NCBI GenBank assembly: GCA_937915675.1
Contig: CALGID010000001.1
Coordinates: 23,504 to 87,503, forward strand
Length of the DNA: 64,000 bases
Source of the DNA: an uncultured Anaerolineaceae bacterium
Lineage (GTDB): Bacteria; Chloroflexota; Anaerolineae; Anaerolineales; Anaerolineaceae
Reading direction: 5' to 3'
Shown one piece after another: positions 30,547 through 55,479 of the stretch. Positions within the stretch are counted from its first letter, which is position 1; each line of letters begins with the position of its first letter. Below the pieces are notes generated by a model, which did not search any database, was not told where the DNA came from, and saw only the letters and a list, made by a program, of their open reading frames with translations. The position numbers and the translations under genes were made by a program.

Positions 30547-31536
30547 ATGCTCTTTATTGACAACGAAAACCAACACGACGCCCGCGTCAACCTCGCCATC
30601 GAAGAATACATCATCCGCAATATTGCCCCCCAGGAGGAGATCCTCTTCTTCTACATCAACGGGCCTTCCATCATCATCGGCCGCAACCAAAACACGATCG
30701 AAGAGATCAACGTGGACCACGTGGAGGCAAACGGCATCACGGTCGTGCGGCGCCTATCCGGCGGAGGAGCGGTCTATCACGATCTGGGCAACCTGAATTT
30801 CAGCTTCATTGCCCCCAATTCAGTGGGCAATTTCCATAACTTCCGCAAATTTACCCAACCCGTAATCGATGTCCTGCAAGCCATGGGCGTGCCAGCCGAA
30901 CTCTCCGGCCGCAATGACATTTTGGCCGATGGCCGCAAGATCAGCGGAAATGCCCAGTACGTCAGCGGACCGCGCATGGTCAGCCACGGCACCCTGCTCT
31001 GGGATACTGACCTGAGCGTGGTGGGGGAGAGCCTGCGCGTCAAGCAGGCCAAAATTGAAAGCAAGGGCATCAAGAGCGTGCGCAGCCGGGTGGCCAACAT
31101 CACTGAATTCCTGCCCGAACCGCACATGGACATCATGGCCTTTCGGCAGAAGATCATCGATGGTGTTTTTGCCGGCGGTGAATTGCGCCAGTACCAGCTC
31201 ACCGCGGATGACTGGAAAGGCATCATGGCCCTCTCCAAAAGCCGCTACCAAACCTGGGATTGGAATTACGGCCGCTCGCCGGCCTTTAACCTCAAGCGCG
31301 AAACCCGTTACCCGGGCGGCGGCATCGAGGCTTTGCTTGAAGTGGAAAAAGGCAGGGTCCAGGGCCTGAAGTTTTACGGCGACTTTTTCGGTCAGCGCGA
31401 TGTAGCCGAACTGGAGCAAAAGCTGCTGGGCTGCCGCTACGAGCCGGAAGCGCTGCGGGCTTGCCTGGGCGGCGTGGAAATTGGGAATTACTTCGTGAAC
31501 TTCGGCCTGGACGAACTTATCAGCCTGCTTTATTGA
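30547..31536 (+). CDS. lplA: Lipoate-protein ligase A
   Basis: Start at ATG 30547 (MLFIDNENQHDARVNLAIEEYI). GRNQN and RRLSGGGAVYHD motifs typical of LplA. The N-terminal extension in the ORF track has no homolog-like sequence. Confidence 0.85.
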   Translation: MLFIDNENQHDARVNLAIEEYIIRNIAPQEEILFFYINGPSIIIGRNQNTIEEINVDHVEANGITVVRRLSGGGAVYHDLGNLNFSFIAPNSVGNFHNFRKFTQPVIDVLQAMGVPAELSGRNDILADGRKISGNAQYVSGPRMVSHGTLLWDTDLSVVGESLRVKQAKIESKGIKSVRSRVANITEFLPEPHMDIMAFRQKIIDGVFAGGELRQYQLTADDWKGIMALSKSRYQTWDWNYGRSPAFNLKRETRYPGGGIEALLEVEKGRVQGLKFYGDFFGQRDVAELEQKLLGCRYEPEALRACLGGVEIGNYFVNFGLDELISLLY

Positions 31537-31543
31537 GCGCACC

Positions 31544-31596
31544 TTATCGTATTACGATAATTATATATTGACAAACGATAAATTATCATTTATACT
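31544..31596 (+). promoter_or_regulatory. Sigma-70-like promoter (TTGACA-17-TATACT) flanked and overlapped by palindromic operators
   Basis: -35 TTGACA at 31568..31573, 17-nt spacer, -10 TATACT at 31591..31596. Perfect 17-bp palindrome TTATCGTA-T-TACGATAA at 31544..31560. Related ACGATAA-A-TTATCAT at 31575..31589, inside the spacer. GGAGGTG Shine-Dalgarno before ATG 31618. Confidence 0.6.
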
Positions 31597-31617
31597 TCGG
31601 GTATTGACGGAGGTGAA

Positions 31618-32088
31618 ATGAATCGTTTGCGCACAATTATCATGCAAGTGGGGGTGGGCTTGGGGGTCATGATCCTGCTCTACCTGATGGCTTTCAGCCT
31701 TGAGTATTCAGTTGCCTATGCCCAGAACTACCCGGAGCTCGCCCACATGCGCGGCCCAGTAGTTTTTCTGGTCATTTGCGCGCTGGCAGCCGGCACCGCC
31801 ATCCTGGTACTGGGGTTCCTGCTCCTGGAGCGCGTCCGGCGGAACATCGCCTTCGCGCCTCAAACAGTAAAGCTGCTGCGGGCGATCGCCTGGATTTCCT
31901 TTGGCGCGGTTCTGCCGCTGCTCTTGCTTGGCGTTTACACCGAGGCCAACGTGGCTTCTTCCATTACCAACCTCTATGTTTATGGCCTGATGGCCCTCGC
32001 GTTCATGCTGGGCAACCTCTTTATGCTTCTGGCAGCCTTGTTCCAGAACGCGGTGAGCTACAAGCAGGAAGTAGACCTCACGGTGTAG
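31618..32088 (+). CDS. DUF2975-like membrane protein
   Basis: 156 aa with four hydrophobic helices. Immediately followed (2-nt gap) by a YozG-type HTH gene, the usual DUF2975 partner. Confidence 0.6.
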   Translation: MNRLRTIIMQVGVGLGVMILLYLMAFSLEYSVAYAQNYPELAHMRGPVVFLVICALAAGTAILVLGFLLLERVRRNIAFAPQTVKLLRAIAWISFGAVLPLLLLGVYTEANVASSITNLYVYGLMALAFMLGNLFMLLAALFQNAVSYKQEVDLTV

Positions 32089-32089
32089 C

Positions 32090-32308
32090 ATGGCGATCAT
32101 CGTGAACCTGGATGTAGTGCTCGCTCAACGCAAAATGTCGCTCACAGAGCTCTCTGAACGGGTGGGTATCACCCTGGCCAATCTTTCCAACCTCAAAACG
32201 GGGAAGGCCCAGGCAGTGCGTTTCAGCACCCTGGATGCCATCTGCAAAGCCCTGGATTGCCAGCCTGGGGAAATTTTGGAGTACCGGCCTGAAACCTGCC
32301 GTTCTTAA
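32090..32308 (+). CDS. XRE/YozG-type small HTH transcriptional regulator
   Basis: 72 aa. MAIIVNLDVVLAQRKMSLTELSERVGITLANLSNLKTGKAQAVRFSTLDAICKALDCQPGEILEY matches the COG3655-type layout. Confidence 0.8.
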   Translation: MAIIVNLDVVLAQRKMSLTELSERVGITLANLSNLKTGKAQAVRFSTLDAICKALDCQPGEILEYRPETCRS

Positions 32309-33348
32309 CGGCTTGAACTTGCCTGATCGTTCAGATCGCCCGATTCCCGGCCCGGCCCATCATCTGGCGATCCTGGAGGCAGGGGCGCCCGCAGCTTTTG
32401 AGCGGCGGCACGCTTGCTCTCCTCGGAACGCCGGTCGTAACGCCGGGTCGTGTCGGTGGAGGCATGCCCGGCAATCGCGCTCACCGTTAACACGTCCACT
32501 TCGGCGTCCAGCAAATGAGTGATGGCCGTACGCCGCAGGTCGTGCGGGCTGAAGGCCTCCAGGCCGGCCTGCAGCGCGCGGCGGCCAAGCAGGTAGTAGA
32601 TGGCCTGCGGGCTCAGCCGGCGCAATACGATTTTCCCGCCCTTGCTCACCCGGCAAAACAGCGGGCCCAGTCGCCGGCCGCGCAAATCCAGCCAGCTCTG
32701 CAAACTCAATAGCGCGGAAGGCGAAAGATACACGTACCGCCGCTTGCTCCCCTTGCCCTGAACGCGCAGGCGGGCTTCCTCCACGGAAAGGTCCGCCAGG
32801 TTCAGGTCCACAACTTCCTGGCGGCGTAAGGCGCCAACATAAAGCGTTGAGATTAGGGCTGCATCGCGCACGCCCAGGTTGGGGTTGCCTTCGTCCGCCA
32901 GGCAAGCCGCCACCAGGGCTTGCAGTTCATCTTCCTTCAAAGCCCTTCCGCGCGGAAGGGCTTCATTGCGCAGGGAGCGCACCGCGGCCGCCTGGTAGTA
33001 GCTGTTGTGGTCGCTGTAAAGCCCCAGGCGGTAGGCTTCTTCCAGCACCCGGCGCAACGCAACCAGGTGCTTGTTCACCGAGGATTTGGCGTAGCCAATA
33101 TCCACCATGTAAGCTGCCAGGCTGGAGGTCTGTTCGTAGCGCAGGTTCTGCCAGGCGAATTGCAGCGGGTCGTCCAATTTGCCTTCAGAAAAAATCCCCG
33201 CCAGGTTGGCCAGTGCCGTGGCCTGCGTGCGCCTGCCGCTGGGGGAGAGCGTGTTCAGGTAAGCTTCGGCCGGGGAAGGCTGCCCGGCTTCTGCCCAAAC
33301 CAGCTGGGCAGTCAGGGGGGTAGGGTGGGGTTTAGCGCTTGCAGGCAT
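32305..33348 (-). CDS. Tyrosine site-specific recombinase/integrase
   Basis: Catalytic signature regions GALRRQEV, HDLRRTAITHLL and GHASTDTTRRY. An N-terminal SAM-like domain. An unusual Pro/Ser/Gly-rich C-terminal extension. Confidence 0.88.
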   Translation of the reverse strand: MPASAKPHPTPLTAQLVWAEAGQPSPAEAYLNTLSPSGRRTQATALANLAGIFSEGKLDDPLQFAWQNLRYEQTSSLAAYMVDIGYAKSSVNKHLVALRRVLEEAYRLGLYSDHNSYYQAAAVRSLRNEALPRGRALKEDELQALVAACLADEGNPNLGVRDAALISTLYVGALRRQEVVDLNLADLSVEEARLRVQGKGSKRRYVYLSPSALLSLQSWLDLRGRRLGPLFCRVSKGGKIVLRRLSPQAIYYLLGRRALQAGLEAFSPHDLRRTAITHLLDAEVDVLTVSAIAGHASTDTTRRYDRRSEESKRAAAQKLRAPLPPGSPDDGPGRESGDLNDQASSSR

Positions 33349-33351
33349 ACC

Positions 33352-33370
33352 GTATTCTCATAAGTAATTA
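33352..33370 (+). repeat. 19-bp exact direct repeat, copy 1 (GTATTCTCATAAGTAATTA), 4 nt from the integrase start codon
   Basis: Identical 19-mer found again at 34034..34052. Confidence 0.9.
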
Positions 33371-33447
33371 TAAATGCACCTGCCCCTTAGTGTTCCGGAA
33401 AACCGGTGGGGAGTAAAATTGTCGTCAAAAGAATACCGGAGGGGATA

Positions 33448-33831
33448 ATGATCGATTTCAGCAATAAAGTTTTATTCAAATTAAAGCCCGTAGACAATCG
33501 CTCTTTTTGGAATATGATTGCGCCGCTCTTCCTGCCAGGTGAGACGCTGCTCGCCTCGTTTCAGGCCTTGCGCGATGGCGTGGTCTTTACCAATAAGCGT
33601 ATTATTACCATCAACGTGCAGGGCATCACCGGGGCCAAAAAGGATTTCACCACATTGCCGTATTCCAAGATCCAGGCTTTCTCAGTAGAAACTGCCGGCA
33701 TTCTGGATAACGATAGCGAGCTGGACCTTTGGTTCGCCAACCTTGGCCGCGTCCGCCTGGAATTTACCCGCGGGACGGACGTAGCTGGAATCTGCCGCAC
33801 GATCAGTGAATTTACCCTGCAGTCAGCGTAA
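33448..33831 (+). CDS. Bacterial PH-domain (YokE-like) protein
   Basis: Start at ATG 33448 after GGAGGGG. FTNKRIITINVQGITGAKKDFTTLPYSKIQAFSVETAG is typical of bacterial PH (bPH) domains. Confidence 0.65.
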   Translation: MIDFSNKVLFKLKPVDNRSFWNMIAPLFLPGETLLASFQALRDGVVFTNKRIITINVQGITGAKKDFTTLPYSKIQAFSVETAGILDNDSELDLWFANLGRVRLEFTRGTDVAGICRTISEFTLQSA

Positions 33832-34033
33832 AACTCCCCCTGGCCTGGGGCAAAAGTGCGGCCTTAAATTAACCTGAGCCATCCTGCGCGCTCATTCTGA
33901 CCCTCCGCAAGCCAAGAGGAGTTGAGCGGAAGAATTGATAGCGTGTTTCAGCTTCAATCTTTGCCTCAGTGGGGCTTCATGAAGCTACAATTGCCTATGC
34001 GCAAAAATAATCACCTATGACTATCGAGAATAT

Positions 34034-34052
34034 GTATTCTCATAAGTAATTA
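34034..34052 (+). repeat. 19-bp exact direct repeat, copy 2
   Basis: GTATTCTCATAAGTAATTA. Here it is preceded by GAGAATA, forming the inverted repeat GAGAATA-TG-TATTCTC (34026..34041). Confidence 0.9.
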
Positions 34053-34084
34053 GCTGGGTCCTTAAAACCCCTGACCCCCTGCCC

Positions 34085-34116
34085 AAAAGAAAAGCGTGGA
34101 AGAAGGTCTTCCACGC
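34085..34116 (-). terminator. Rho-independent terminator of hcp
   Basis: On the minus strand: GCGTGGAAG-ACCTT-CTTCCACGC followed by TTTTCTTTTGGG, 23 nt after the hcp stop. Confidence 0.8.
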
Positions 34117-34138
34117 TCCTTTGTCTAAAATCTTGGGG

Positions 34139-35815
34139 TTACGCGCCAGCCATCATTGCCGCCACGTCGGCTTCAGCCTCCTGGGTGGGCATGAGATCAT
34201 AGGCCTGTACGATGGTCGCGGCCACATTCGGCGAAAGGAAGGCCGGCAGCGTGGGGCCAAGCCGGATCTTCTTGACGCCCAGGGAAAGCAGCGCCAGCAA
34301 GACGATCACAGCCTTTTGCTCGTACCAGGCGATATCGAATGAAAGCGGCAGCTCGTTCACGCTGCAGCCAAAGGCCTCGGCCAAAGCCTGCGCGATCACC
34401 ACCAGGCTGTAGCTGTCGTTGCACTGGCCGGCATCCAAAACCCGCGGAATCCCGCCAATCTCGCCCAGGCCCAGCTTGTTATAGCGGTACTTGGCACACC
34501 CGGCAGTGAGGATCACCGTGTCCTTGGGCAGGGCCAGGGCTACATCGGTGAAATACTGGCGTTCCTTATGCCGGCCGTCGCAGCCGCCCATCACCACAAA
34601 GCGCTTGATGGCGCCGCTCTTCACAGCTTCAATCACCTTATCGGCTACGGAAAGCACGGTCGCATGGGCATAACCGATCGGCAAGGTGCCGGTCTCAAGT
34701 TCATCCGGTCCGGGCAGGGTCTTCGCCATCTCGATTACAGCGCTAAAGTCCTTATGGCCGCCTTCGGGCCGATCCGCGATGTGCGGAACACCGGGGTAAC
34801 CGGTCATGCCGGTGGTAAAGATGCGTTCGCGGTAGGAATCCTTCAGCGGGATGATGCAGTTGGTGGTCATGAGGATGGGGCCATTAAAGCTGCCAAACTC
34901 TTCGCCCTGGTGCCACCAGGAACCGCCGTAGTTCCCCACCAGGTGGGGGTATTTCTTCAGCTCGGGGTAGGCATTCGTGGGCAGCATCTCGCCGTGGGTG
35001 TACACGTTCACGCCGGTACCTTCGGTCTGCTGCAGCAGTTCTTCCAGGTCCGGAAGGTCGTGCCCGCTCACCAGAATGCCCGGGCCGGGGCGCACGCCAA
35101 TATTTACATTGGTGGGCTCGGGGTTGCCGTAGCGTTCAGTGTTGGATTTATCCAGCAGGGCCATGGCTTTTACGCCAAACTCGCCGGTTTTCTGCACCCA
35201 ATCCAAAAGCTGGCTTACGTTCAGGTCCTGGGTAGTGGCGTCCAGCGCTTCCTGCATAAAGCCCAGGATGCTGGAATCCCGCCCCCCCACCAGGTAAGCG
35301 TGGTCCGTATACGCGGCCATGCCCTTCAGGCCGATGACGATCAATTGGCGCAGGGAGCGCAGGTCGGGGTCTTCATTCGGGTCGTGCGTGATGCCCACGG
35401 TAACGGCCTTCGTGAGCAGAGTGTCCATTTCATAATTCTCGGGATGCCATGCAGCCCAATCCGGGCCGGAGCCGGAGCAGTTGCTCTTGTGCAGCTCGTT
35501 GCAGCGCGCCTGGGCGTCCACGTGCAGGGCATCGCGGCGTTCGATGGCTTCTTTGATCAGCTCGACGAAGCGCTCTTCGTCGAAGTTGGCATTGGTGATC
35601 GTGGCAAAGAGGGCTTTGGCCACAAAAAGGTCGGTTTCAGGATGCTCCACACCCATATTGCGCCCGCGGCTGCCCCAGAATGAAATCCCTTTCAGCAGAT
35701 AAATCAAAAGATCCTGGAGGTTGGCAACGTCGGCAACTTTGCCGCACATACCGCGCCGGGTGCAACCCTGGTTCTTCATGGTTTCCTGGCATTGGTAACA
35801 GAACATATCGGTCAT
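34139..35815 (-). CDS. hcp: Hybrid-cluster protein / hydroxylamine reductase
   Basis: N-terminal MFCYQCQET...CTRRGMCGK cysteine motif; 558 aa, the canonical length and layout. Confidence 0.92.
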
Positions 35816-36156
35816 AGACTGTCTCCTTGGTAGTTTTGCATTATTCTAAACGAAGTTTGTGTTTTTGTGGATTATTAATACCAAATTTAGTGTAATTAAG
35901 TTGCATCCATCGAATTAGTAGTTACGCGCAGTTTCTTGGTCTCCGCTTCGCCGTTAATGCCGCTGGCTGAGGGTGATTATTGCTCTCCTCTAACGCCACC
36001 AACTCCAAAAATATCACCTGTATCAAAGCGCCGCGCCTTCACTGGAAGGGATGCAGAGACATAGCAGCCAAAGCTTTTCACTGGATTTGACTGGGGTACT
36101 TTCAATCTGCTATCCTTTTTTCCTATCGGTCGAGGAATGGATGAAAGGAGCCTCGG

Positions 36157-37149
36157 ATGAAAACTTTTCTTGCTACTACCGGCAACGGCATCGCCCGGGC
36201 CGAACCCCAGGATGAGCACACCTGGAAAGTATCCCACCTGCTTGCCGGCCAACGGGTCTTCTGCCTGGCGGCCGACCCCCACGAACAAGGCGCCATTTTC
36301 GCCGGCACGGAAAGCAGCGGTGTGCTGCGCTCCGCCGATGGCGGCAAAACCTGGCTGCCCGCGGGCCTGGCGGACCAAAACGTCAAGGCCATCCAGGTCA
36401 GCCCCATCCTGCCCGGCACGGTCTACGCTGGCACCAAGCCCGCCATGATCTTCGTCTCGCGCGATCACGGCCAAAATTGGCAGGAGCTGCCTGCCTTTCG
36501 CCAGATCCCTTCCCGGCGCTTTTGGTTCTCGCCGGCAGAAAAGCCCCACCATGCCTACATCCAGGGGATCGCCCTCTCACCAACGGACGAAAATCTGATC
36601 CTGGCTGGAATCGAAGCCGGGGCGGTCGTGCGCAGCAGCGATGGCGGCCAAACCTGGGAAGACCACCGCAAGGGCGCCCTGCGGGACTGTCACAGCATCA
36701 CATTCCATCATTCTCTGGGCAACTGGGCCTATGAAGGCGGCGGCACTGGTGCAGGCAATGCCTTCAGCCAGGACGGGGGCGAAACCTGGACGCAAAACCG
36801 GGCTGAAAAGCGCCTGACCTACGGCTGGGCCTGCGCTGCCGACCCCTTGGATCCCCGTATCTTCTACTTTTCGGTTTCCCCCTCGCCGATGAAGGCCCAT
36901 AGCCAGGACGACGCGCGCGCTTACATCTTCCGTAGGGATGCCAGCGGTAATTGGGTGAAACTCGGCGGCGGTCTGCCCCAACCGCTTAAGCACATGCCCT
37001 ACGCCCTGCTTACCGATCCCGCCGCTCCCGGCCACCTCTACGCGGGGCTGAGCAATGGAGCTCTGTGGCATACCCCTGACCATGGAAACACCTGGCGGCA
37101 GCTGCCCCTCAACCTGGGGATCATCCATCGGGTCATGATCATGCTCTAA
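36157..37149 (+). CDS. BNR/Asp-box repeat beta-propeller protein (Ycf48/sialidase-like fold), no signal peptide
   Basis: Five Asp-box motifs: SADGGKTW, SRDHGQNW, SSDGGQTW, SQDGGETW, TPDHGNTW. AAAGGAG Shine-Dalgarno. Confidence 0.75.
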   Translation: MKTFLATTGNGIARAEPQDEHTWKVSHLLAGQRVFCLAADPHEQGAIFAGTESSGVLRSADGGKTWLPAGLADQNVKAIQVSPILPGTVYAGTKPAMIFVSRDHGQNWQELPAFRQIPSRRFWFSPAEKPHHAYIQGIALSPTDENLILAGIEAGAVVRSSDGGQTWEDHRKGALRDCHSITFHHSLGNWAYEGGGTGAGNAFSQDGGETWTQNRAEKRLTYGWACAADPLDPRIFYFSVSPSPMKAHSQDDARAYIFRRDASGNWVKLGGGLPQPLKHMPYALLTDPAAPGHLYAGLSNGALWHTPDHGNTWRQLPLNLGIIHRVMIML

Positions 37150-37182: not shown

Positions 37183-38141
37183 GTTGTAGGGGTCGAGCCT
37201 ATAGACAGTCGTAGGGGTCGACCACTTGAGTCGACCCACAGCGATAGGCATCGGTACCGTTGTAGGGGTCGGGCAATAGGCCCGACCCACCCAATCACCC
37301 TCATCCAGCAGTGCCCTTAATGCCTAGTTGATCGTCGTAGGGGATCGGCCACTTGTGTCGACCCACGGCGATAGGCATCCCACCGGTACCGTTGTAGGGT
37401 CGGGCCTACCGCCCGACCCGCATGGGTGAACCTTCCTATTATTTCCCGAGCTCCAGACGATCAATGTAGGGGTCGACCACTTGTGTCGACCCGCGGTGGA
37501 GGGCCTCCCATCGGTACCGTTGTAGGGTCGGGCCTACCGCCCGACCCGCATAGGTGAACCTTCCTATTTTTCCCCGAGCTCCAGACGATCAATGTGAGGA
37601 TCGACCACTTGTGTCGACCCGCGGGAATGGGCCTCCCATCGGTAACGTTGTAGGGGTCGGGCCTACTGCCCGACCCGCATGGGTGAACCTTCCTATTTTT
37701 CCCCGAGCTCCAGACGATCAATGTGGGGATCGACCACTTGTGTCGACCCACGGCGATAGGCCTCCCACCAGTACCGTTGTTGGGGTCGGGCCTACAGCCC
37801 GACCCGCTAAATCACGCCCATCAAGCGGTGCCCTTATTGCCTAGTTGATAGTCGTAGGGGTCGACCACTTGTGTCGACCCACAGTGATAGGCCACCCGTC
37901 TCGCAGTTGTTGGGGTCGAGCCTATTGCCCGACCCGCATGGGTGAACCTTCCTATTATTTCCCGAACTCCAGACGATCAATGTGGGGATCGACCACTTGT
38001 GTCGACCCACGGCGACAGGCCTCCCACCAGTACCGTTGTTGGGGTCGGACCTACTGCCCGACCCGCTAAATCGCGCTCATCCAGCGGTGCCCTTAATGCC
38101 CAGTTGATAGTCGTAGGGGTCGACCACTTGTGTCGACCCCC
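37183..38141. repeat. Mosaic (BIME-like) array of two alternating hairpin repeats with two linker types
   Basis: Eight copies of hairpin A (GTAGGGGTCGAC-CACTTGT-GTCGACCC) alternate with eight copies of hairpin B (GTAGGGTCGGGC-CTACN-GCCCGACCC). Period is about 120-150 bp. The linkers are themselves conserved. Confidence 0.9.
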
Positions 38142-41673: not shown

Positions 41674-42625
41674 AATGGATGCTTCGCGGATCGTAAAAGA
41701 GATTTTGGCAAAAACACCAGGAGGCATTCAGGAGATCAATTACATTGGCTGCGGGGGCTCGCGGGCCTCGGTCTTTGCCGGGCACTACCTCATGAAGCAC
41801 GAGGCTAAAGCCATTGCCAGCAACTGGTTTAATAGCAACGAATTCGTCCACGCTGCTCCGCGTTCGCTGGGCCCGGGGAGCGTTTGCGTCGTCTGCTCGC
41901 TAAAGGCCACCCCCGAGAGCCTTGAAGCGCTCCGCCTGGCAAATGCCCGCGGGGCGGCGACCGTCGCCCTCACCGGCAGCCTGGATACCGGCCTGGCCAA
42001 AGAAGCCCAGTACCCCCTTGTGTATACAACGCGCGCGGATGGCAACCAGGCCCACGCTTTGCGCATCGGCTTTGAGCTCCTGCATCAGCAGGAAGCCTGG
42101 CGGCACTACGCCGAAGCCCAAACTGCCCTGGAAAAAGTGGACCCCCTGATCGCCGGCGCCCTGGAGCGCAGCCTTTCGGCAGCCCGGGAGTTCGGGCTCC
42201 TCTACAAGGACGATCAGCTCTTTCACATCCTGGCCAGCGGCAGCGCCTATAGCGCGGCTTACATCATGGCCTTCTGCCATCTGATGGAAATGCAGTGGAA
42301 GCATGCCGTGCCCATCCATAGCGGAGAATACTTCCATGGGCCCTTTGAAGCGACTGATAAGGACCTGCCAACGATTCTGATCAAATCCACCGGCCGCACC
42401 CGCCCCCTGGACGAGCGGGTGGAGCGTTTTTTAGCCCAATACGCCTCCCGCGTGACCATCATCGATACGGTCGAACTTGGCTTGCCCAGCCTGGGCGAGC
42501 ACGTTGCCGAATACTTTAATTCTGTGCTCATGCTTACCGTCGCCCACCAATACGTCGATGAGCTCAGCAAGCAAACTGGCCATCCCATGCAGCACCGCCG
42601 CTACATGTGGCAGTTTGACTACTAA
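41657..42625 (+). CDS. SIS-domain fructosamine-6-phosphate deglycase (FrlB)-like
   Basis: Two SIS halves. HSGEYFHGPFE and the C-terminal HRRYMWQFDY resemble E. coli FrlB ESGEFRHGPLE and RRYYGGLVEY. The start may instead be ATG 41675. Confidence 0.7.
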   Translation: MTGRFEMDASRIVKEILAKTPGGIQEINYIGCGGSRASVFAGHYLMKHEAKAIASNWFNSNEFVHAAPRSLGPGSVCVVCSLKATPESLEALRLANARGAATVALTGSLDTGLAKEAQYPLVYTTRADGNQAHALRIGFELLHQQEAWRHYAEAQTALEKVDPLIAGALERSLSAAREFGLLYKDDQLFHILASGSAYSAAYIMAFCHLMEMQWKHAVPIHSGEYFHGPFEATDKDLPTILIKSTGRTRPLDERVERFLAQYASRVTIIDTVELGLPSLGEHVAEYFNSVLMLTVAHQYVDELSKQTGHPMQHRRYMWQFDY

Positions 42626-42912
42626 TCAATATTATTCGAGTTAATTCGGAACAGACCTACTAATCCGGGTCGATTTGATCACTTCGGCCGTTTGGTGTGA
42701 TTTGAAGTAAAGGCTAACCTAATTATTGGTTTCATTGGTAATTCGTTGTTAAGTCCCCGAACTTTTTGGCAATAATGATGCCCTTAAGTCCTCCCGATGG
42801 TTTCTGAATCTCCTTTACCCAAGGAATATTCTTTCTATTAACCAAACCTGAAAAAACAAGATTGATAGTTTCATGATTTGTAAAGGTTGTATCGCTAAAT
42901 GAAACTAACTCG

Positions 42913-42940
42913 TTGACTAAAGGACCTAGGTGCCTATAAT
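42913..42940 (+). promoter_or_regulatory. Near-consensus sigma-70 promoter upstream of the IclR gene
   Basis: TTGACT (42913..42918), 16-nt spacer, TATAAT (42935..42940), about 100 nt before ATG 43041. Confidence 0.45.
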
Positions 42941-43040
42941 CATTGATATTGTTAATTAATTAACGCATTATTCACTAAAATTTAATTTTTAAATAGCCGA
43001 GTTAAATCTGTTAGTTCGAAATGAGGGAACTAATCCAGTT

Positions 43041-43802
43041 ATGAGTTCTACACTTACCAAGTCATTTAAGGTTCTTGAGTATGTAGCCGACATCCACAAT
43101 TTGGAGGCCTTGGCAAAAGCAACTGGGTTGACCAAATCTACCACCTATCGTATCGTCAATTCCCTTGCCCGCCTGGGGTATGTTGAACATGTGCCCAGGG
43201 AAGGATATTATCTGGGGCGGAAGCTGCTTTCCCTTGGCTTTAAGGCGTACTCACAATTACATTTGCCTTCTATTGCCCACCCCTATTTAGTAAAACTCGC
43301 GAATCTTACCCAGGAAACGGTTCATCTCGGTATTTTGGACGAGGATGATATCGTCTACATTGATAAAGTGGATGGAAATCGTGGCCTTCAAATGCGTTCA
43401 CGGATTGGAGCGCGTGTTCTGCCGCAATCCACCTCACTCGGAAAGATCCTGATTGCAGCTAAGGACGACACTGTTTGGTCAAGTTACTTCGATCCCAATT
43501 TGCGCCGAACCTCAAATACGATTGATAAGTTAGAGGATTTTCTAAACGAATTAAAAAAGGTTCGGTCAACCGGATATTCTCTTGATCTGGAGGAGAACGA
43601 GACTGGCATTTATTGTATTGGGGCAGAAGTAAAGGATGCGAGCAACCAAACGGTTGCGGCCCTCAGTCTGTCTGTTGCTAAGGTTTACCTAACGGACAAG
43701 AGATTCAACGAGTTGATCCCATTGGTCGTAGATTATGGTAAGCAGATCTCGTTTGAGTTGGGTTGGAAATCCGAGGGGTTATCCCAGGGAGAAGTGAGAT
43801 GA
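43041..43802 (+). CDS. IclR-family transcriptional regulator
   Basis: N-terminal wHTH (LAKATGLTKSTTYRIVNSLARLGYV) plus a C-terminal IclR effector domain; 253 aa. Confidence 0.88.
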   Translation: MSSTLTKSFKVLEYVADIHNLEALAKATGLTKSTTYRIVNSLARLGYVEHVPREGYYLGRKLLSLGFKAYSQLHLPSIAHPYLVKLANLTQETVHLGILDEDDIVYIDKVDGNRGLQMRSRIGARVLPQSTSLGKILIAAKDDTVWSSYFDPNLRRTSNTIDKLEDFLNELKKVRSTGYSLDLEENETGIYCIGAEVKDASNQTVAALSLSVAKVYLTDKRFNELIPLVVDYGKQISFELGWKSEGLSQGEVR

Positions 43803-43889
43803 GTGTTTCACCAACCTCGGTATTATATTTCAGCGAACATTTTTGTCAGCAAACAAATTTGACATGTTTTTTAGGTAATAGGAATTATT

Positions 43890-45341
43890 ATGCGTAGACA
43901 CTCTGACAACTATGAAGATACACTGGCAAACGTAAATACCTTTTCTTCACCATCCGACTTAAAAATAACCGATATGCGCTTCGTGAACCTGGAAGGCTGT
44001 CCCTTCCCAGCCGTAATCATGAAACTGTACACCAATCAAGGTATTGTCGGTTTTGGAGAAGTCCGAGATATGGGGTCCAAGACATACGCTTTGATGCTGA
44101 AAGGAAGGCTCCTCGGCGAAAACCCATGTAATGTGGACAAACTATTCCGGAGGATCAAACAATTTGGTTCCCACGGACGCCAGGGAGGCGGTGTATCCGC
44201 TATAGAAATTGCACTTTGGGACCTGGCTGGAAAAGCTTTTGGAGTGCCAGTTTACCAGATGCTGGGCGGCAAGTTTAGAGACTCGGTAAGGATTTACTGT
44301 GACACAGATGTAATGTTCGCTAGTGAAAGAAGCGCAGGCAAAGCCATGGGAGAAGCCCTTGCCCAGAGGCTGGAAAAAGGCTTCACCATGTTGAAAATGG
44401 ATCTGGGAATCAACCTTTTAGAGGGGCTCCCGGGGATGCTGAATGCTCCCCTCGGATATTTGGAAAGCCAAAGGGCTGCGTTTGATAAGGGCAATAAACT
44501 CTACCCCTCAGACCTCGCGCATGACCAGCAGGAACTAAGGAAGGCTATTCGAACTACCTCTTCTCTTGAGGATTTGATGGAGAGATTCGATGCTCGCAAT
44601 CGGTCCTATGAATTCCTGGCTCGTATACACCCCTTTACGGCGATCCAAATCACCGAAAAAGGCTTGGATTACTTAGAAAACTACGTCGCTGAAGTCAGAG
44701 ATGTGATTGGATATGAAGTTCCCCTTGCGCTTGATCACTTTGGGAAAATCGCAATCGAAGAAATCATCAAGCTTGCAAAGCGGCTAGAAAAATTTAATAT
44801 AGCATGGCTTGAGGACCCAATTCCTTGGCCACTTACAAATCAATGGAAACGCCTGGCTGACGCTACCACTATCCCCGTTTGTACTGGAGAAGAACTTTAT
44901 TTGGCCCAGAGTTTTGAACCAATTCTCGATGTTGGCGGCTTAAGTTATGTGCATCCGGACATGTTAACCCTGGGCGGCATTTACGAAACAAAGAAGTTGG
45001 GTGATTTGGCAGAACGCTACGGGGCCAAAATGGTTCTCCACCAAGCGGGCACCCCAATTCACGCTCTAGCCGCCGCCCATGCTGGAATTGCAACTGAAAA
45101 TTGTCTGGCAAGTGAATGGCACGCAAACGATGTGCCTTGGTGGGATGATCTCTATGTAGGAAAAATGGCGAAACCCCTGGTGAGATCCGGTTTTCTCGAA
45201 GTATCCAACGAGCCGGGTCTGGGGATTGAAGACCTAAACGATGAACTGATAAAAGAGAGAGTAAGCGCTTCGATCCCAGGAATGTGGGAACCAACGGATG
45301 AATGGAATTTTGAATACAGTTATGACGAAAGGTTAAATTGA
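43890..45341 (+). CDS. Enolase-superfamily enzyme (mandelate racemase/muconate lactonizing family), unusually long at 483 aa
   Basis: N-terminal capping domain with GFGEV and AIEIALWDLAGKAFGVPVYQMLGG. Barrel-domain metal-ligand contexts ALDHFG and WLEDP. Has a ~70-aa insertion relative to typical members. Confidence 0.75.
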   Translation: MRRHSDNYEDTLANVNTFSSPSDLKITDMRFVNLEGCPFPAVIMKLYTNQGIVGFGEVRDMGSKTYALMLKGRLLGENPCNVDKLFRRIKQFGSHGRQGGGVSAIEIALWDLAGKAFGVPVYQMLGGKFRDSVRIYCDTDVMFASERSAGKAMGEALAQRLEKGFTMLKMDLGINLLEGLPGMLNAPLGYLESQRAAFDKGNKLYPSDLAHDQQELRKAIRTTSSLEDLMERFDARNRSYEFLARIHPFTAIQITEKGLDYLENYVAEVRDVIGYEVPLALDHFGKIAIEEIIKLAKRLEKFNIAWLEDPIPWPLTNQWKRLADATTIPVCTGEELYLAQSFEPILDVGGLSYVHPDMLTLGGIYETKKLGDLAERYGAKMVLHQAGTPIHALAAAHAGIATENCLASEWHANDVPWWDDLYVGKMAKPLVRSGFLEVSNEPGLGIEDLNDELIKERVSASIPGMWEPTDEWNFEYSYDERLN

Positions 45342-45352
45342 TAGGTAAAACA

Positions 45353-46192
45353 ATGATCTTTGATTGCCACACACATTTGGCTCACCCCGATCACGTCGGT
45401 GGAGACTTTCTGGCAGATGCCAAGAGGGCCTGGGGGGAGAGTTATTCCATGCCCTGCAGCCCCGTAGAGCACCAAGAGGCTATGAAACAATGCGATGGCG
45501 CAATCGTTTTGGCCCTGGACGCCGAAGACGTCGGCTTCTATGTGCCTAATGAATATGTAGCTACCTATGTGAGCACAAACCCGGATTCCCTTGTTGGATT
45601 CGCAAGTGTAAATCCAAAAAGGTCCGATGCAATAGAACGGCTTGTTTATGCTAAAGAAGAGCTCGGTCTAAAGGGCCTCAAACTCGCCCCAATCTACCAG
45701 ATTTTCGACCCTGTATCGCCCGAGTATTTCCCCCTTTATGCAAAAGCAGAGGAACTAGAAATGCCGGTCATGTGGCATCAAGGCACGTCGTACATCAGGG
45801 TTGGGCCTCTAGATCTTAGCAATCCCGTTTTGATCGATGTAGTGGCACGCCATTTTCCAAAACTGAAGATGGTCATTGCTCATCTCGGCCACCCATGGAC
45901 CTCTGAAACTGCTTGTGTGATTCGAAAGCACCCAAATGTGTTTTCAGATGTTTCCGCACTCGTTACAAGGCCCTGGCAGTTTTACACCGCCATGCTGAGC
46001 ATGGTGGAATATGGTGTAACCAACAAACTATTGTTTGGAACAGATTTTCCGTTCTTTGATTGTGATCGCACCATCAAAGCATTCAGGAATATCAACCACA
46101 TCATTGAGGGTACTAACATGCCTCGCATTCCAGAGGAGGTGATCGAATCGATTATTCATGGAAACCCTCTGGAAAAACTAGGCTTAAATTAG
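45353..46192 (+). CDS. Amidohydrolase_2-family metal-dependent hydrolase/decarboxylase/hydratase (LigI/LigJ/ACMSD-like)
   Basis: MIFDCHTHL N-terminal HxH motif, HLGHPW, and a C-terminal FGTDFP. The start could also be TTG 45338. Confidence 0.75.
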   Translation: MIFDCHTHLAHPDHVGGDFLADAKRAWGESYSMPCSPVEHQEAMKQCDGAIVLALDAEDVGFYVPNEYVATYVSTNPDSLVGFASVNPKRSDAIERLVYAKEELGLKGLKLAPIYQIFDPVSPEYFPLYAKAEELEMPVMWHQGTSYIRVGPLDLSNPVLIDVVARHFPKLKMVIAHLGHPWTSETACVIRKHPNVFSDVSALVTRPWQFYTAMLSMVEYGVTNKLLFGTDFPFFDCDRTIKAFRNINHIIEGTNMPRIPEEVIESIIHGNPLEKLGLN

Positions 46193-46208
46193 AAAAAATC
46201 GGAGGAGA

Positions 46209-46871
46209 ATGAAAGTGACGGATAAAGAACTTTTTGAGTTAATGGAAAAACGGTTGTATACAGGGCTGCTTTGTGATGTCATGGACGAAATGGGCCTTAG
46301 AAACCAGGCGATGAACATCAACATCCGCCCATTAGAAGAAACCTCAGTAATGGCTGGCAGAGCCAAAACCATCCTTGCGGTCGATGTTTACGAAGTAGTC
46401 GATGAACCTTATAAAGTAGAAATCGCGGCCCTGGACAGCATAAAAGAAGACGAAATTCCCGTGATTTGCACCAATTCAAGTTCTAACAACGGAATTTGGG
46501 GTGAACTTCTTTCTACTGCGACAAGAATGCGTGGAGGTAGAGGTGCGGTAGTTGATGGCCTCATGAGGGACACAAAAAAAATCAGGGAGATGGGATTTCC
46601 AGTGTTCTCAGCAGGCTATAAACCTCTCGACTCTAAGGGTCGGGGGTTAGTCATTGATTTTGATTGCCCAGTCGTTGCGGGGGGAATACGCGTACTCCCA
46701 GGTGATGTTATTTTTGCGGATTTTGATGGTGTAGTAGTGGTGCCTAAAGACATTATCCATGAGGTCGTAAAAAAAGCTCTGGATAAGCTCGAGATGGAAA
46801 ATCATTCTCGCAATGAACTATTGGAAGGAAAACTATTGCAGGATGTTTATGACAAGTACGGAGTTTTATAA
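46209..46871 (+). CDS. RraA-family protein (HMG/CHA-aldolase / oxaloacetate decarboxylase-like)
   Basis: WGELLSTATRMRGGRGAVVDGLMRDTKKIREMGFPVFSAG is the RraA-fold signature. The start may be GTG 46215. Confidence 0.8.
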   Translation: MKVTDKELFELMEKRLYTGLLCDVMDEMGLRNQAMNINIRPLEETSVMAGRAKTILAVDVYEVVDEPYKVEIAALDSIKEDEIPVICTNSSSNNGIWGELLSTATRMRGGRGAVVDGLMRDTKKIREMGFPVFSAGYKPLDSKGRGLVIDFDCPVVAGGIRVLPGDVIFADFDGVVVVPKDIIHEVVKKALDKLEMENHSRNELLEGKLLQDVYDKYGVL

Positions 46872-46910
46872 AATCGCAATTCAAGACCACAAAAGAAACA
46901 AGGAGAAAAA

Positions 46911-48128
46911 ATGAAGCAGTTGAACAAGGTAGTAACCATTATAGTAAGTGTAATGCTAGCTATCGCAATCGTGGGGTGTAGCACAGCCGCGCCTGCACCC
47001 GCCGAGCCGCCCAAGCCAGCAGGAGACTCACAAGCTCCAAGCACCTCCGGCCCAACCTTCGATGGGGAAATCTATGTAGGCGTCACTGCCGGTATCACTG
47101 GTGATGCCCCATTAGAAGGCGAAGCTATGACTCGTGCCGTCACCCTTGCGTCCGAAATCATTAATGGTCAGGGCGGTGTCTTAGGGAAAAAATTAGTTCC
47201 GGTTATCGAGGATGATTCATACACACCAGAAGGTGCAATCACTGTCGCCAACAAGTTCATAGCCGACGAAAAAATTGTCGCAATGGCCGGCCCCGGCAGG
47301 TCCAGCTCCTTCATGGCAATCTCAGATCTGATCAAAGAAGCTGGCATGCCGATCGTAACACCAGCTACCAGCACAACTTTCTATAAACTCGACAACCCTT
47401 ACTGGTTCCGAGATAGAACTACTGATGGCGTGAATACCAATATCGCCACCCGGTTCCTTGTTGAAGAACTTGGGCTCAAGAACATTGGCGTTATGCTAAC
47501 GAATGATGACGCCGGTTTGGCTGCCCGGGCAGTGATCGAAAGCACCTTGAAGGAGTTAGGTGTAACCTATCAGATCATCGTCTACAACGGTGGGGAGATC
47601 GACTACAGTGGTCAGGTCTTACAGCTTCGCGATGCCGGCGCAGATGGCCTGGTGTTGTGGGGACATACCGTTGACTACGCTGTGATTTGCAGGAACATGT
47701 ATCAGCTGGGCTATGATATTCCGACAGTTGGAAATACCGGCTTTATGAGTGCAACTTTCCTTGATCTGGTCGATGATGAAGTAGCTGACGGCCTTTATGT
47801 AGTTACAGACATCAACCTTGAGAGCGAAGATCCTTACGTTAAGTATTTCCTCGATGAATATTCCAAACGCTACCCGGATATAAAGCCTGACGTCATTGAT
47901 GCGATCCACTTTGCCCACATGTTCCTGATCGCCGATGCGATTAAACGGGCTGGTGTGGCAGAGAGGCAAGCAATCGCTGATGCGTTGCATGAAACTAAAG
48001 ATATTCCAAGCGTACTTGGCCCCCTGACGTGTGACAAAAACCAGGACTGTGCCCACACTGCAACGGTTTTCCAGAACGAAGGAAAAGTTGCCCATGCAAT
48101 CAAAGCTATTACATTGGATGTTGAATAA
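46911..48128 (+). CDS. Periplasmic-binding lipoprotein of a Liv-type (branched-chain amino acid family) ABC transporter
   Basis: Signal plus lipobox AIAIVGCSTA. Type-I PBP layout. AAGGAG Shine-Dalgarno. Followed by LivH/M/G/F homologs. Confidence 0.85.
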   Translation: MKQLNKVVTIIVSVMLAIAIVGCSTAAPAPAEPPKPAGDSQAPSTSGPTFDGEIYVGVTAGITGDAPLEGEAMTRAVTLASEIINGQGGVLGKKLVPVIEDDSYTPEGAITVANKFIADEKIVAMAGPGRSSSFMAISDLIKEAGMPIVTPATSTTFYKLDNPYWFRDRTTDGVNTNIATRFLVEELGLKNIGVMLTNDDAGLAARAVIESTLKELGVTYQIIVYNGGEIDYSGQVLQLRDAGADGLVLWGHTVDYAVICRNMYQLGYDIPTVGNTGFMSATFLDLVDDEVADGLYVVTDINLESEDPYVKYFLDEYSKRYPDIKPDVIDAIHFAHMFLIADAIKRAGVAERQAIADALHETKDIPSVLGPLTCDKNQDCAHTATVFQNEGKVAHAIKAITLDVE

Positions 48129-48167
48129 TTCAAGACCTAACCAGTAGTTAGCAGCATAAATTTCAGA

Positions 48168-48199
48168 TCCATGTCCAGTCTCCAGAGACTGGACATGGA
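48168..48199 (+). other. Perfect intercistronic stem-loop between the binding-protein and permease genes
   Basis: TCCATGTCCAGTCTC-CA-GAGACTGGACATGGA: 15-nt arms that are perfectly complementary. Confidence 0.8.
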
Positions 48200-48233
48200 C
48201 CCAGGACAGAAGCATGTCCGGAGGCACAATAAC

Positions 48234-49109: not shown

Positions 49110-49130
49110 GATGGGAAGGAACACTGATTC

Positions 49131-50901: not shown

Positions 50902-50911
50902 GGAGTAAACC

Positions 50912-51625: not shown

Positions 51626-51632
51626 TTATATT

Positions 51633-52622: not shown

Positions 52623-52651
52623 AAATAATCACTAACGAGCAGGAGAAAACT

Positions 52652-54268: not shown

Positions 54269-54283
54269 ACAGAAAAGGTTCTC

Positions 54284-55426: not shown

Positions 55427-55479
55427 GCATATCAGGCCGCATTAATGTATCAACCAGCCCCTTAATAGAACAACTGGAA

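What the first reader, a model, noticed from the sequence alone, without database searches (positions are those of the whole stretch)
33352..34052. Exact 19-bp direct repeats bracket a single PH-domain gene immediately next to a tyrosine integrase (cassette-like layout)
GTATTCTCATAAGTAATTA occurs at 33352..33370, 4 nt from the integrase ATG (integrase on the opposite strand), and again at 34034..34052. The two copies enclose 663 bp that contain only the PH-domain gene, which is transcribed away from the integrase. A chance exact 19-mer repeat in 64 kb is very unlikely (expectation roughly 0.01-0.02). The second copy is extended into the inverted repeat GAGAATA-TG-TATTCTC. The geometry formally resembles an integron platform: recombinase outside, a site adjacent to its 5' end, and a promoter-distal cassette ending in a second site. 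The sites do not look like classical attC. Alternatives are attL/attR of a tiny integrated element or a duplicated target.
Basis: partly seen in the sequence, partly recalled or inferred. Interest (0 to 1): 0.62.

Follow-up and report, generated by a model that had tools for sequence, protein, structure and literature searches.

The report
Xer-like recombinase sites flanking a passenger gene
The two 19-base repeats are binding arms for the neighbouring Xer-like recombinase, one in a complete dif/lox-type site and one in a half-site at the enzyme's own promoter, and the stretch between them holds different passenger genes in related Anaerolineae, so this is a new variant of a known system, not an integron.

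Summary
The repeat is real: an exact 19-mer at 33352-33370 and 34034-34052, with no third copy even at 3 mismatches. It is not an att scar, an attC site or a dispersed repeat.

On the recombinase strand it reads TAA-TTACTTATGAGAA-TAC, which is one 13-bp arm plus half the spacer of a 13-6-13 dyad.
- **Distal copy:** part of a complete site, TTACTTATGAGAA-TACATA-TTCTCGATAGTCA (34018-34049).
- **Proximal copy:** a half-site next to a TATAAT hexamer, 3 nt from the recombinase ATG.

Homologous recombinases (40-97% identity, about 85 loci plus cyanobacterial plasmids) carry the same kind of dyad just upstream of their gene, and the arms co-vary.

One monophyletic Anaerolineaceae clade shares the layout hcp, full site, variable interval, half-site, recombinase, often followed by LplA. 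The interval holds nothing, a decayed PH gene, the intact PH gene (here) or 1-4 other genes. Multi-gene intervals have no internal sites.

The enzyme is Xer-like, not IntI-like. Within this species the PH gene is fixed, and no excision junction was seen.

Best reading: a resolution-type (dif/res-like) site plus an autoregulatory half-site, with the PH gene as a stable passenger. Capture of the gene by site-specific recombination remains possible but is unproven.

The parts
32305..33348 (-). Xer-like simple tyrosine recombinase, 347 aa. The catalytic residues R175, K199, H269, R272, H295 and Y304 are conserved.
   Evidence: PF00589 E 4.6e-27. These residues are invariant in a 31-sequence alignment. 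Best solved relatives are XerD (1e-28), XerC-like/XerA and XerH. The XerC, XerA, XerD and XerS models hit but fall far below their cut-offs.
33355..33367 (-). Proximal half-site: a single recognition arm, TTACTTATGAGAA on the minus strand. There is no partner arm. It lies inside 19-mer copy 1 (33352-33370).
   Evidence: The same half-site, preceded by TATAA, lies just upstream of the recombinase start in 10 of the 11 loci of the two-site clade; the called or estimated start is -6 to -65 from the arm.
33367..33372 (-). TATAAT hexamer (-10-like) abutting the half-site arm on the recombinase strand. It is a putative recombinase promoter element.
   Evidence: Read directly from the sequence. TATAA precedes the arm in most clade members. 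In distant members (L028 group) a TTGAAA-17-TAAAAT promoter sits directly before the dyad. The consensus scan did not call a full -35/-10 pair here.
33448..33831 (+). Passenger gene: a 127-aa bacterial PH-domain protein (bPH_1), divergent from the recombinase.
   Evidence: PF08000 E 2e-35. It is fixed in 22 conspecific contigs in the same context. It is half-deleted in a strain whose recombinase is 97% identical (L007/L012) and absent in L008, L013 and L098.
33832..34017 (.). Non-coding stretch between the PH stop codon and the full site. It is partly conserved with L008 and L012, for example TTTGCGCATAG and GCGCAGGATGGCTCAGG.
   Evidence: No Rfam family matches. The stretch is not conserved in clade members whose cargo genes fill the interval.
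34018..34049 (-). Complete 13-6-13 core site on the minus strand: TTACTTATGAGAA-TACATA-TTCTCGATAGTCA. It contains most of 19-mer copy 2 (34034-34052).
   Evidence: It is the only AT-rich dyad of this type in the 64 kb. Equivalent full sites occur in all clade members, and single sites occur upstream of distant homologues. Arm covariation is shown.
34139..35815 (-). Hybrid-cluster protein gene (hcp), with its terminator at 34093-34117. This is the conserved outer flank of the full site.
   Evidence: Prismane E 7.6e-167. Terminator hairpin found. hcp lies upstream of the full site, at distances from about 0.2 to 1.8 kb, in L013, L020, L096 and L097 as well.

Best explanation
The 19-mer is the recognition arm of a dif/lox-type core site for the adjacent Xer-like tyrosine recombinase. 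It comprises 13 bp plus 3 nt of spacer and 3 nt of outer flank.

**The two copies**
- The distal copy belongs to a complete 32-bp site: two inverted 13-bp arms and a 6-bp spacer. Two recombinase molecules can bind there and exchange strands with an identical site. Such a partner would be on a sister chromosome or a dimer, as at dif, difSL or a plasmid res site. This step is inferred.
- The proximal copy is a single arm fused to a TATAAT hexamer, 3 nt from the recombinase ATG. It most likely binds one recombinase molecule and acts as an autoregulatory operator. This step is also inferred.

**Why the PH gene stays put**
- The half-site has no second arm, so the two direct copies are not a competent excision pair.
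- The DNA between them is therefore kept stably. The PH-domain gene is a passenger in an interval that gains and loses genes over evolutionary time.

**Shown**
- The anatomy of both sites.
- Their linkage to this recombinase family.
- Covariation of the arms.
- Conserved flanks.
- Variable content of the interval in relatives.

**Inferred**
- Binding of the recombinase to the arms.
- Resolution-type recombination at the full site.
- Autoregulation at the half-site.
For: 1. **Linkage of site and gene.** A dyad of the same architecture lies 20-130 nt upstream of homologous recombinase genes, in the same orientation, in most loci that have enough upstream sequence. Dyads with at least 10 of 13 complementary positions occur in 28 of 73 upstream regions. 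The controls gave 2 of 73 (shuffled) and 4 of 50 (downstream).
2. **Arm covariation.** Over 37 sites, 10 of 13 pairs change on both sides. That is 41 cells against 10.6 +/- 2.8 in shuffles and at most 16 in slid controls. Examples are GAGAA/TTCTC, GCGAA/TTCGC, GACAA/TTGTC, GGTAA/TTACC and CAGAA/TTCTG.
3. **Three arms change together in L097.** The variant TTATTTATGAGAA appears in the distal left arm, is mirrored in the distal right arm (TTCTCGATAATAA) and also appears in the proximal half-site. This is expected if one protein reads all three arms, and not expected for a hairpin.
4. **Enzyme type.** It is a simple Xer-like recombinase with an intact catalytic set.
5. **Vertical inheritance.** LplA lies close downstream of the gene in most loci at 55% identity or more (within a few kb), and hcp lies upstream of the full site in five. 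The two-site clade is monophyletic.
6. **Plasmid relatives.** The closest relatives in the plasmid collection are on cyanobacterial plasmids (43-45% identity, 90% coverage). Family-like dyads lie upstream in two of the three loci examined (L116, L114); L115 shows only separated arm-like motifs. A plasmid recombinase next to its own site is the usual layout of multimer-resolution modules, and xerS lies next to difSL as one module (PMC5357621).
7. **Stability.** The PH gene and both copies are identical in the conspecific contigs inspected (7 checked for the sites; 22 carry the identical PH protein). Contigs of 16 metagenome runs show no joint between the copies.
Against: - No experiment or read-level evidence shows binding or recombination.
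- Dif status is untested. GC skew and gene orientation in 64 kb show no switch at the site. I could not check whether canonical XerC/XerD and a separate dif exist in the same genomes.
- The sister clade's dyads have 5-nt, not 6-nt, inner spacing, which is odd for one conserved recombination mechanism.
- Four distant loci carry a second, abutting dyad that resembles canonical dif and shows compensatory changes between near-identical loci. The family-type dyad might therefore be an operator there rather than the crossover site.
- The consensus scan did not call a full promoter at the half-site.
- The sites used for the covariation count were pre-selected for at least 9 of 13 complementary positions. 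This inflates pairing and may inflate double changes.
Confidence: 0.55

Rival explanations
1. IMEX-like capture. The PH segment, and the other cargos in relatives, entered as circular DNA. Recombinase-mediated exchange joined the chromosomal site to a partial site on the circle that shared one arm and part of the spacer. That left one intact and one degenerate site, as with LME-1, TLC and the gonococcal island.
For: - The form matches. One complete site and one site share an arm plus 3 nt of spacer but have a divergent second arm, as described for LME-1 and for GGI and TLC.
- Content between the copies differs among relatives: 0 to 4 genes and at least 7 states.
- L029, a 45%-identity member, independently has a partial site, one CoiA-like gene, a full site and then the recombinase.
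- PH-region GC is lower, 0.47-0.56 against about 0.6.
Against: - Relatives with nothing between the copies still carry both the full site and the half-site (L008, L013, L098). No single-site 'empty' state exists inside the clade.
- The geometry is wrong for simple insertion into a promoter-proximal site. The arm-less copy, not the full one, is next to the gene and keeps the TATAAT.
- Multi-gene cargos have no internal site remnants.
- The nearest PH homologues (70% identity) sit in unrelated contexts, without the site or the recombinase.
- The interval downstream of the recombinase also gains and loses genes, so turnover is not specific to the site-bounded interval.
- No circle or deletion junction was seen, although only contigs were available.
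Confidence: 0.2
2. Operator-only. The dyad and the half-site are transcriptional operators, bound by the recombinase acting as a repressor or by another regulator. No recombination takes place at them.
For: - The arm starts directly after a -10-like hexamer in the window clade and after a good TTGAAA-17-TAAAAT promoter in the L028 group.
- The sister clade's dyads overlap the ribosome-binding site and have 5-nt spacing.
- In the L028 group a separate, canonical dif-like dyad sits beside the family-type dyad.
Against: - In the window clade the complete dyad lies 0.36-3.4 kb from the promoter, next to the end of hcp, where an operator has no obvious target.
- The catalytic residues are strictly conserved, which argues for an active recombinase.
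- The 13-6-13 architecture with a conserved internal asymmetry (pair 10/29) is that of tyrosine-recombinase core sites.
Confidence: 0.12
3. Integron-like platform. The recombinase captures promoterless cassettes at a site next to its gene, and each cassette ends in a recombination site.
For: The recombinase lies outside the repeats, with a site at its 5' end. Cargo genes in all clade members are transcribed away from it.
Against: - There is no IntI insertion, and the integron-integrase models fail.
- The sites are short symmetric dyads, not attC.
- There is no site between the genes of 2-4-gene cargos.
- Empty members keep both sites.
- The cargo is not shared as cassettes elsewhere.
Confidence: 0.04

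Closest known systems
XerS/difSL of streptococci and lactococci, with the other single-recombinase Xer systems (XerH/difH, XerA/dif, XerL/dif)
   Same: - A single simple tyrosine recombinase.
- A site made of two imperfect inverted arms around a short spacer.
- The gene lies immediately beside its site, as one module (PMC5357621).
- The best sequence and structure relatives are XerD, XerA, XerC and XerH.
   Different: - Scores are far below every Xer equivalog cut-off.
- The arms are 13 bp with variable inner bases.
- In this clade the complete site has moved 0.36-3.4 kb from the gene, and a half-site remains at the promoter.
- Terminus location, FtsK dependence and dimer resolution are untested.
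IMEX (LME-1 of Legionella, TLC and CTX phages, gonococcal genetic island)
   Same: DNA without its own recombinase is bracketed by one intact site and one degenerate site. The two share an arm and part of the spacer, which stabilises the insert.
   Different: - The two-site state is present even without cargo.
- The degenerate copy lies on the gene-proximal side.
- The cargo has no replication or mobility genes.
- No free or excised form was seen.
Plasmid multimer-resolution modules with their own tyrosine recombinase (Cre/loxP of P1, ResD/rfsF of F)
   Same: The recombinase gene lies next to a short dyad site. Cyanobacterial plasmid homologues at 43-45% identity carry family-like dyads upstream. 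The 13-bp arms recall loxP.
   Different: Here the module is chromosomal and vertically inherited. The resemblance to Cre and ResD rests on my own knowledge, not on a test.
Integrons (IntI, attI, attC cassettes)
   Same: The recombinase lies outside the repeats, a site sits at its 5' end, and the cargo is transcribed away from it.
   Different: There is no IntI domain, there are no attC sites and no site-delimited arrays.
'Cyan' subgroup of simple tyrosine recombinases (Smyshlyaev et al. 2021, PMC8138268)
   Same: That paper describes Xer-related simple recombinases of cyanobacteria, proposed to stand in for Xer where no Xer or dif is found. The cyanobacterial homologues here are the nearest plasmid-borne relatives.
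   Different: Membership was not tested, because no model of that subgroup was available. This is a lead only.

Membership tests
Integron | IntI-type integrase with the additional domain inserted in the catalytic region | tested here: not met
   Residues 136-308 align to PF00589 positions 2-169 without a large insertion. TIGR02249 scores 37.7 bits against a cut-off of 265, and NF011946 scores 21.7 against 435.
Integron | attC sites ending each cassette (long imperfect palindromes with R''/L''/L'/R' boxes) | tested here: not met
   The sites are 32-bp 13-6-13 dyads. No arm-like sequence lies between the genes in 2-4-gene intervals of L010, L096, L097 and L093.
Integron | Variable cassette content at a fixed platform | tested here: met
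   The interval between the two copies holds 0-4 different genes in relatives. The downstream interval varies too.
Single-recombinase Xer/dif module | Simple tyrosine recombinase (core-binding plus catalytic domain) with the R-K-H-R-H-Y catalytic set | tested here: met
   R175, K199, H269, R272, H295 and Y304 are invariant. The best hits are XerD, XerA and XerH structures.
Single-recombinase Xer/dif module | Passes a curated Xer family model (XerC, XerD, XerS or XerA) | tested here: not met
   XerC 121 bits against 335, XerA 99 against 220, XerD 91.5 against 330, XerS 71 against 267.
Single-recombinase Xer/dif module | Site of two imperfect inverted arms around a 6-11 bp spacer, linked to the gene | tested here: met
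   A 13-6-13 dyad lies upstream of homologues across the family, with covarying arms.
Single-recombinase Xer/dif module | One site per chromosome, at the replication terminus | tested here: inconclusive
   There is only one full site in the 64 kb. GC skew and gene orientation show no switch. No complete genome could be read.
Single-recombinase Xer/dif module | Resolves chromosome dimers; loss causes filamentation; FtsK control | not testable with these tools
   This needs genetics.
IMEX | Insert without its own recombinase, bracketed by an intact and a degenerate host-type site | tested here: met
   The full site is at 34018-34049. The half-site at 33355-33367 shares the arm and 3 nt of spacer.
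IMEX | Relatives lacking the insert have a single, unoccupied site | tested here: not met
   L008, L013 and L098 lack cargo but keep both the full site and the half-site, 357-415 bp apart.
IMEX | Excised or circular form detectable | tested here: inconclusive
   There is no joint between the copies in contigs of 16 runs. Contigs drop rare forms, and no raw-read runs were offered.
Integrated element with attL/attR | The integrase lies inside the repeats | tested here: not met
   The recombinase gene lies outside, and its flanks (LplA, hcp) are conserved across the clade.

The most novel reading that the evidence does not exclude
The recombinase family may be a previously undescribed single-recombinase resolution (dif-type) system of Anaerolineae, related to cyanobacterial plasmid enzymes. 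In one clade it would double as a chromosomal gene-capture platform. Circles carrying only one arm and part of the spacer would be integrated next to the full site and then locked in, because the second site is incomplete. That would be a Xer-based, double-strand-site counterpart of an integron.
Probability: 0.12. Interest if true: 0.8.

Novelty: new variant of a known kind. Interest (0 to 1): 0.48.

Why it matters
- **An uncharted recombinase family and its site.** The result ties a widespread, unannotated recombinase family of Anaerolineae, common in digesters and sludge, to a defined 32-bp site. I found no description of a recombinase-linked site of this kind for Anaerolineae in the searched literature. 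A 2011 survey predicted dif only in three Dehalococcoides genomes among Chloroflexi, and in no cyanobacteria.
- **A testable candidate.** If the site is the resolution site, it gives a candidate dif-equivalent for this group and possibly for cyanobacterial replicons.
- **A natural stability design.** The full-site plus half-site layout would keep DNA stable between two directly repeated recombinase sites. The same principle stabilises IMEX elements.
- **Annotation value.** The finding shows that 'integrase next to direct repeats' need not mean a mobile cassette.

Tried and rejected
- **Rfam.** A scan of 31000-36500 at E up to 1 found nothing, so the conserved non-coding stretch is not a known RNA.
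- **GC skew and gene orientation.** Across the window neither shows a usable terminus signal.
- **19-mer in species genomes.** The scan gave 6 hits, 5 of them in unrelated AT-rich taxa. That is chance level, so the 19-mer is not a dispersed repeat.
- **The one related hit (L004).** This Anaerolineaceae MAG shares a 22-mer with copy 1. It has no recombinase within 8 kb, no intact tRNA and no phage-family hits. It stays unexplained.
- **Viral contigs.** The scan gave 2 hits, about chance level. One of them is an ordinary recombinase-plus-site module.
- **Flank heterogeneity.** I first read the different continuations beyond the distal site in metagenome contigs as strain-level rearrangement at the site. 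I dropped this after one continuation proved to be the L008-type species in the same sample. The site is conserved enough for contigs of other species to lie on it.
- **Excision or circle junctions.** None were found in 16 runs. Only contigs were available, so this is weak negative evidence.
- **PH homologue contexts and PADLOC.** There is no link of the PH gene to recombinases, to the site or to defence systems.
- **Split-site scenarios.** I worked through insertion into the spacer and integration of a circle into a promoter-proximal site. Neither reproduces the observed order (full site distal, TATAAT plus arm proximal), so I propose no simple origin.

Full report
**Observation**

The exact 19-mer GTATTCTCATAAGTAATTA is at 33352-33370 and 34034-34052. 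There is no third copy at up to 3 mismatches on either strand, and none appeared in 100 shuffles.

Between the copies lie 663 bp. Their only credible gene is a bPH_1 protein gene at 33448-33831 (+). To the left is a PF00589 tyrosine recombinase gene at 32305-33348 (-), whose ATG is 3 nt from copy 1. To the right are the terminator and 3' end of a hybrid-cluster protein gene, hcp.

**What the repeat is**

Read on the recombinase strand, the repeat is TAA-TTACTTATGAGAA-TAC.

- **Distal copy.** It continues into TTACTTATGAGAA-TACATA-TTCTCGATAGTCA (window 34018-34049). This has two inverted 13-bp arms around a 6-bp spacer, and is the only AT-rich dyad of this kind in the window.
- **Proximal copy.** The arm is preceded by TATAA and followed by TACGGT-ATG, the recombinase start. 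There is no second arm.

So the repeat is one recognition arm plus half a spacer. One copy is a whole core site and the other is a half-site.

**Link to the recombinase family**

The recombinase has more than 700 homologues at E below 1e-10. Over 100 clusters have 60-97% identity, and those that are named come from Anaerolineaceae or Chloroflexi MAGs. I fetched about 85 loci.

- **Position.** A dyad of the same build lies 20-130 nt upstream of the gene, in the same orientation, in most loci with enough upstream DNA.
- **Enrichment.** Dyads with at least 10 of 13 complementary positions occur in 28 of 73 upstream regions. The controls gave 2 of 73 (shuffled) and 4 of 50 (downstream).
- **Consensus.** The consensus is TTACTTATGAGAA-N6-TTCTCGAAAGTAA.
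- **Covariation.** The inner bases differ between loci but stay complementary: GAGAA/TTCTC, GCGAA/TTCGC, GACAA/TTGTC, GGTAA/TTACC, CAGAA/TTCTG. Over 37 sites, 10 of 13 arm pairs change on both sides. That is 41 cells against 10.6 +/- 2.8 in shuffles and at most 16 in slid controls. The caveat is that I pre-selected the sites for at least 9 of 13 complementary positions.
- **L097.** A variant arm (TTATTTATGAGAA) appears in the distal left arm, is mirrored in the distal right arm and is repeated in the proximal half-site. That fits one protein reading all three arms better than a hairpin does.

**The enzyme**

It is a simple Xer-like recombinase.

- All catalytic residues are invariant.
- The nearest solved structures are XerD, XerC-like/XerA and XerH.
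- The XerC, XerA, XerD and XerS models hit but fall far below their cut-offs. Integron-integrase models hit only a short C-terminal stretch.
- There is no IntI-type insertion.
- In phages, nothing exceeds about 31% identity.
- The nearest plasmid-borne relatives are on cyanobacterial plasmids, at 43-45% identity over 90% of the length. L116 and L114 have family-like dyads upstream of the gene; L115 has only separated arm-like motifs.

**The clade with two copies**

A neighbour-joining tree puts eleven loci in one clade: the window, L012, L008, L010, L013, L020, L093 and L095-L098. Its sister clade has a single dyad at the promoter.

All eleven have a full site. In five of them hcp lies further upstream, from about 0.2 kb (window, L013) to about 1.8 kb (L096) from the site. 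All but L020 have the TATAA-arm half-site just before the recombinase start. LplA usually lies downstream.

The interval between full site and half-site varies:

| Locus | Spacing (arm start to arm start) | Content |
|---|---|---|
| L013 | 357 bp | no gene |
| L008 | 373 bp | no gene |
| L098 | 415 bp | no gene |
| L012 / L007 | 477 bp | PH gene with its N-terminal half deleted (recombinase 97% identical to the window's) |
| window / L011 | 682 bp | intact PH gene |
| L095 | 1080 bp | a 246-aa protein |
| L010 | 1732 bp | the 246-aa protein plus a GyrI-like gene |
| L097 | 2164 bp | the 246-aa protein plus glycerate kinase |
| L096 | 2810 bp | a 248-aa protein, a MerR-GyrI gene and a GyrI-like gene |
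| L093 | 3441 bp | four genes, including an AAA_14/DUF4143 ATPase that matches candidate defence system PDC-S01 |

All cargo genes point away from the recombinase.

**Why this is not an integron or a fresh insertion**

- Multi-gene intervals contain no internal arm-like sequences.
- Members with no cargo still carry both copies. The pair is an old feature of the clade, kept by selection, and not the scar of the PH insertion.
- The exact match between the two copies is 13-17 nt in L008, L013, L097 and L098, and is broken by an arm mismatch in L010, L093, L095 and L096. It always centres on the arm.
- The interval downstream of the recombinase also gains and loses genes. Examples are HTH_26 plus DUF2975 here and an acetyltransferase elsewhere. 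Gene turnover is thus not confined to the site-bounded interval.
- The nearest PH homologues are only 70% identical. They sit in unrelated contexts, without the site or the recombinase.
- Within this species, 22 contigs carry the identical PH protein, and the 10 places shown all have the same context. The 7 of these I checked for the arm carry both copies unchanged.
- Contigs from 16 metagenome runs show no joint between the copies. Only the co-occurring PH-remnant strain and other species that share the site appear. Contigs cannot exclude rare events.

**Most likely mechanism**

The full site is a resolution-type crossover site, like dif, difSL or a plasmid res or lox site. Recombinase dimers would act there on two identical copies. 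The half-site, fused to a -10-like hexamer, would bind a single molecule and tune the gene's own transcription. Without a second arm it cannot pair productively with the full site. DNA lying between the two direct copies is therefore stable, and the PH gene is a passenger.

This rests on site anatomy, family-wide linkage, covariation and the literature. xerS lies next to difSL as one module, and large plasmids carry a recombinase beside its site (PMC5357621). Incomplete second sites stabilise inserts at dif (bioRxiv 10.1101/2021.09.12.459815). Binding, strand exchange and autoregulation are inferred. My confidence in this reading is about 0.55.

**What does not fit, or is open**

- Dif status is untested. 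I found no skew signal in 64 kb and had no access to whole genomes.
- The sister clade's dyads have 5-nt inner spacing and overlap the ribosome-binding site.
- L028, L030, L037 and L038 have two abutting dyads after a good promoter. The second (ATGGTTTCGATAA-TATACA-TTATGTTAACCAT) matches E. coli dif, as I recall it, at about 20 of 28 positions. It also shows a compensatory outer-arm change between near-identical loci. In those organisms the family-type dyad could be an operator beside a canonical dif.
- L029 independently shows a partial site, one gene, a full site and then the recombinase. This keeps an IMEX-like capture route alive, at about 0.2.
- I could not derive the observed order (full site far, TATAAT plus arm near) from any single insertion event.

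**Novelty**

Searches of the paper library found no description of a recombinase-linked site of this kind in Anaerolineae or Chloroflexota. A 2011 survey predicted dif in three Dehalococcoides genomes only, and in no cyanobacteria. A 2021 classification mentions a 'Cyan' subgroup of simple recombinases that may replace Xer in some cyanobacteria, which may be related; I did not test this.

I rate the finding a new variant of a known kind: a Xer-type recombinase and site module, with an unusual split into a full site and a promoter half-site around a variable interval.

Noticed in passing
window 37214-38139: A tandem array of about 128-bp non-coding units (also scored with periods of 259 and 388). 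It has about 80% matches and roughly 7 copies, and lies 3 kb from the full site. Each unit contains a GC-rich hairpin (GGGTCGGGC...GCCCGACCC).
   Followed up: no
window about 42000-56000: A block of low GC (0.44-0.48, against 0.57-0.59 elsewhere) made of co-oriented + strand genes. It looks like a horizontally acquired island.
   Followed up: no
L028 3661-3723; L030 2563-2625; L037 3459-3521; L038 3842-3904: Two abutting 32-bp dyads lie between a TTGAAA-17-TAAAAT promoter and the recombinase gene. The second resembles canonical XerCD dif (TTATGTTAA arm, TATACA spacer). It shows a compensatory outer-arm change (ATGGTT/AACCAT to ATGCTT/AAGCAT) between near-identical loci.
   Followed up: partly
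L004 1443-1477 (Anaerolineaceae MAG JAXGJN010000001.1): This is the only exact 19-mer hit in a related genome. It shares a 22-mer with copy 1, including TACGG of the spacer, and has a weak second arm (TTCCCATAAAAGG). There is no recombinase within 8 kb. It sits between unannotated small ORFs and an AT-rich repeat region with two tRNA-3'-end-like fragments, about 1.9 kb from an hcp gene.
   Followed up: partly
window 31618-32308: A DUF2975 membrane protein gene and an HTH_26 regulator gene lie between LplA and the recombinase. The HTH gene's end overlaps the recombinase stop by 4 bp, convergently. The pair is absent at this position in L008 and L093, so it is a second recent insertion beside the recombinase.
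   Followed up: partly
L093 4427-5692 (-): One cargo gene of the site-bounded interval in a relative is an AAA_14/DUF4143 ATPase that matches the candidate anti-phage system PDC-S01 (E 7e-61).
   Followed up: no
L093 1926-1938: A third, arm-only copy (TTACTTTTGAGAA) lies 570 bp beyond the distal full site, outside the main interval.
   Followed up: no
L010, L095, L096, L097 (246-248 aa) and L093 (231 aa), the gene next to the half-site: A conserved protein of unknown function is the recombinase-proximal, divergently transcribed cargo gene in five clade members. It has a weak MerR-type HTH at its N-terminus. It could be a partner or regulator of the recombinase.
   Followed up: partly
window 33355-33367 and 34037-34049 (minus strand): The recognition arm itself contains an ATG (TTACTT-ATG-AGAA). 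In L097 the gene caller used it as the recombinase start. In the window it is out of frame with the real start.
   Followed up: no
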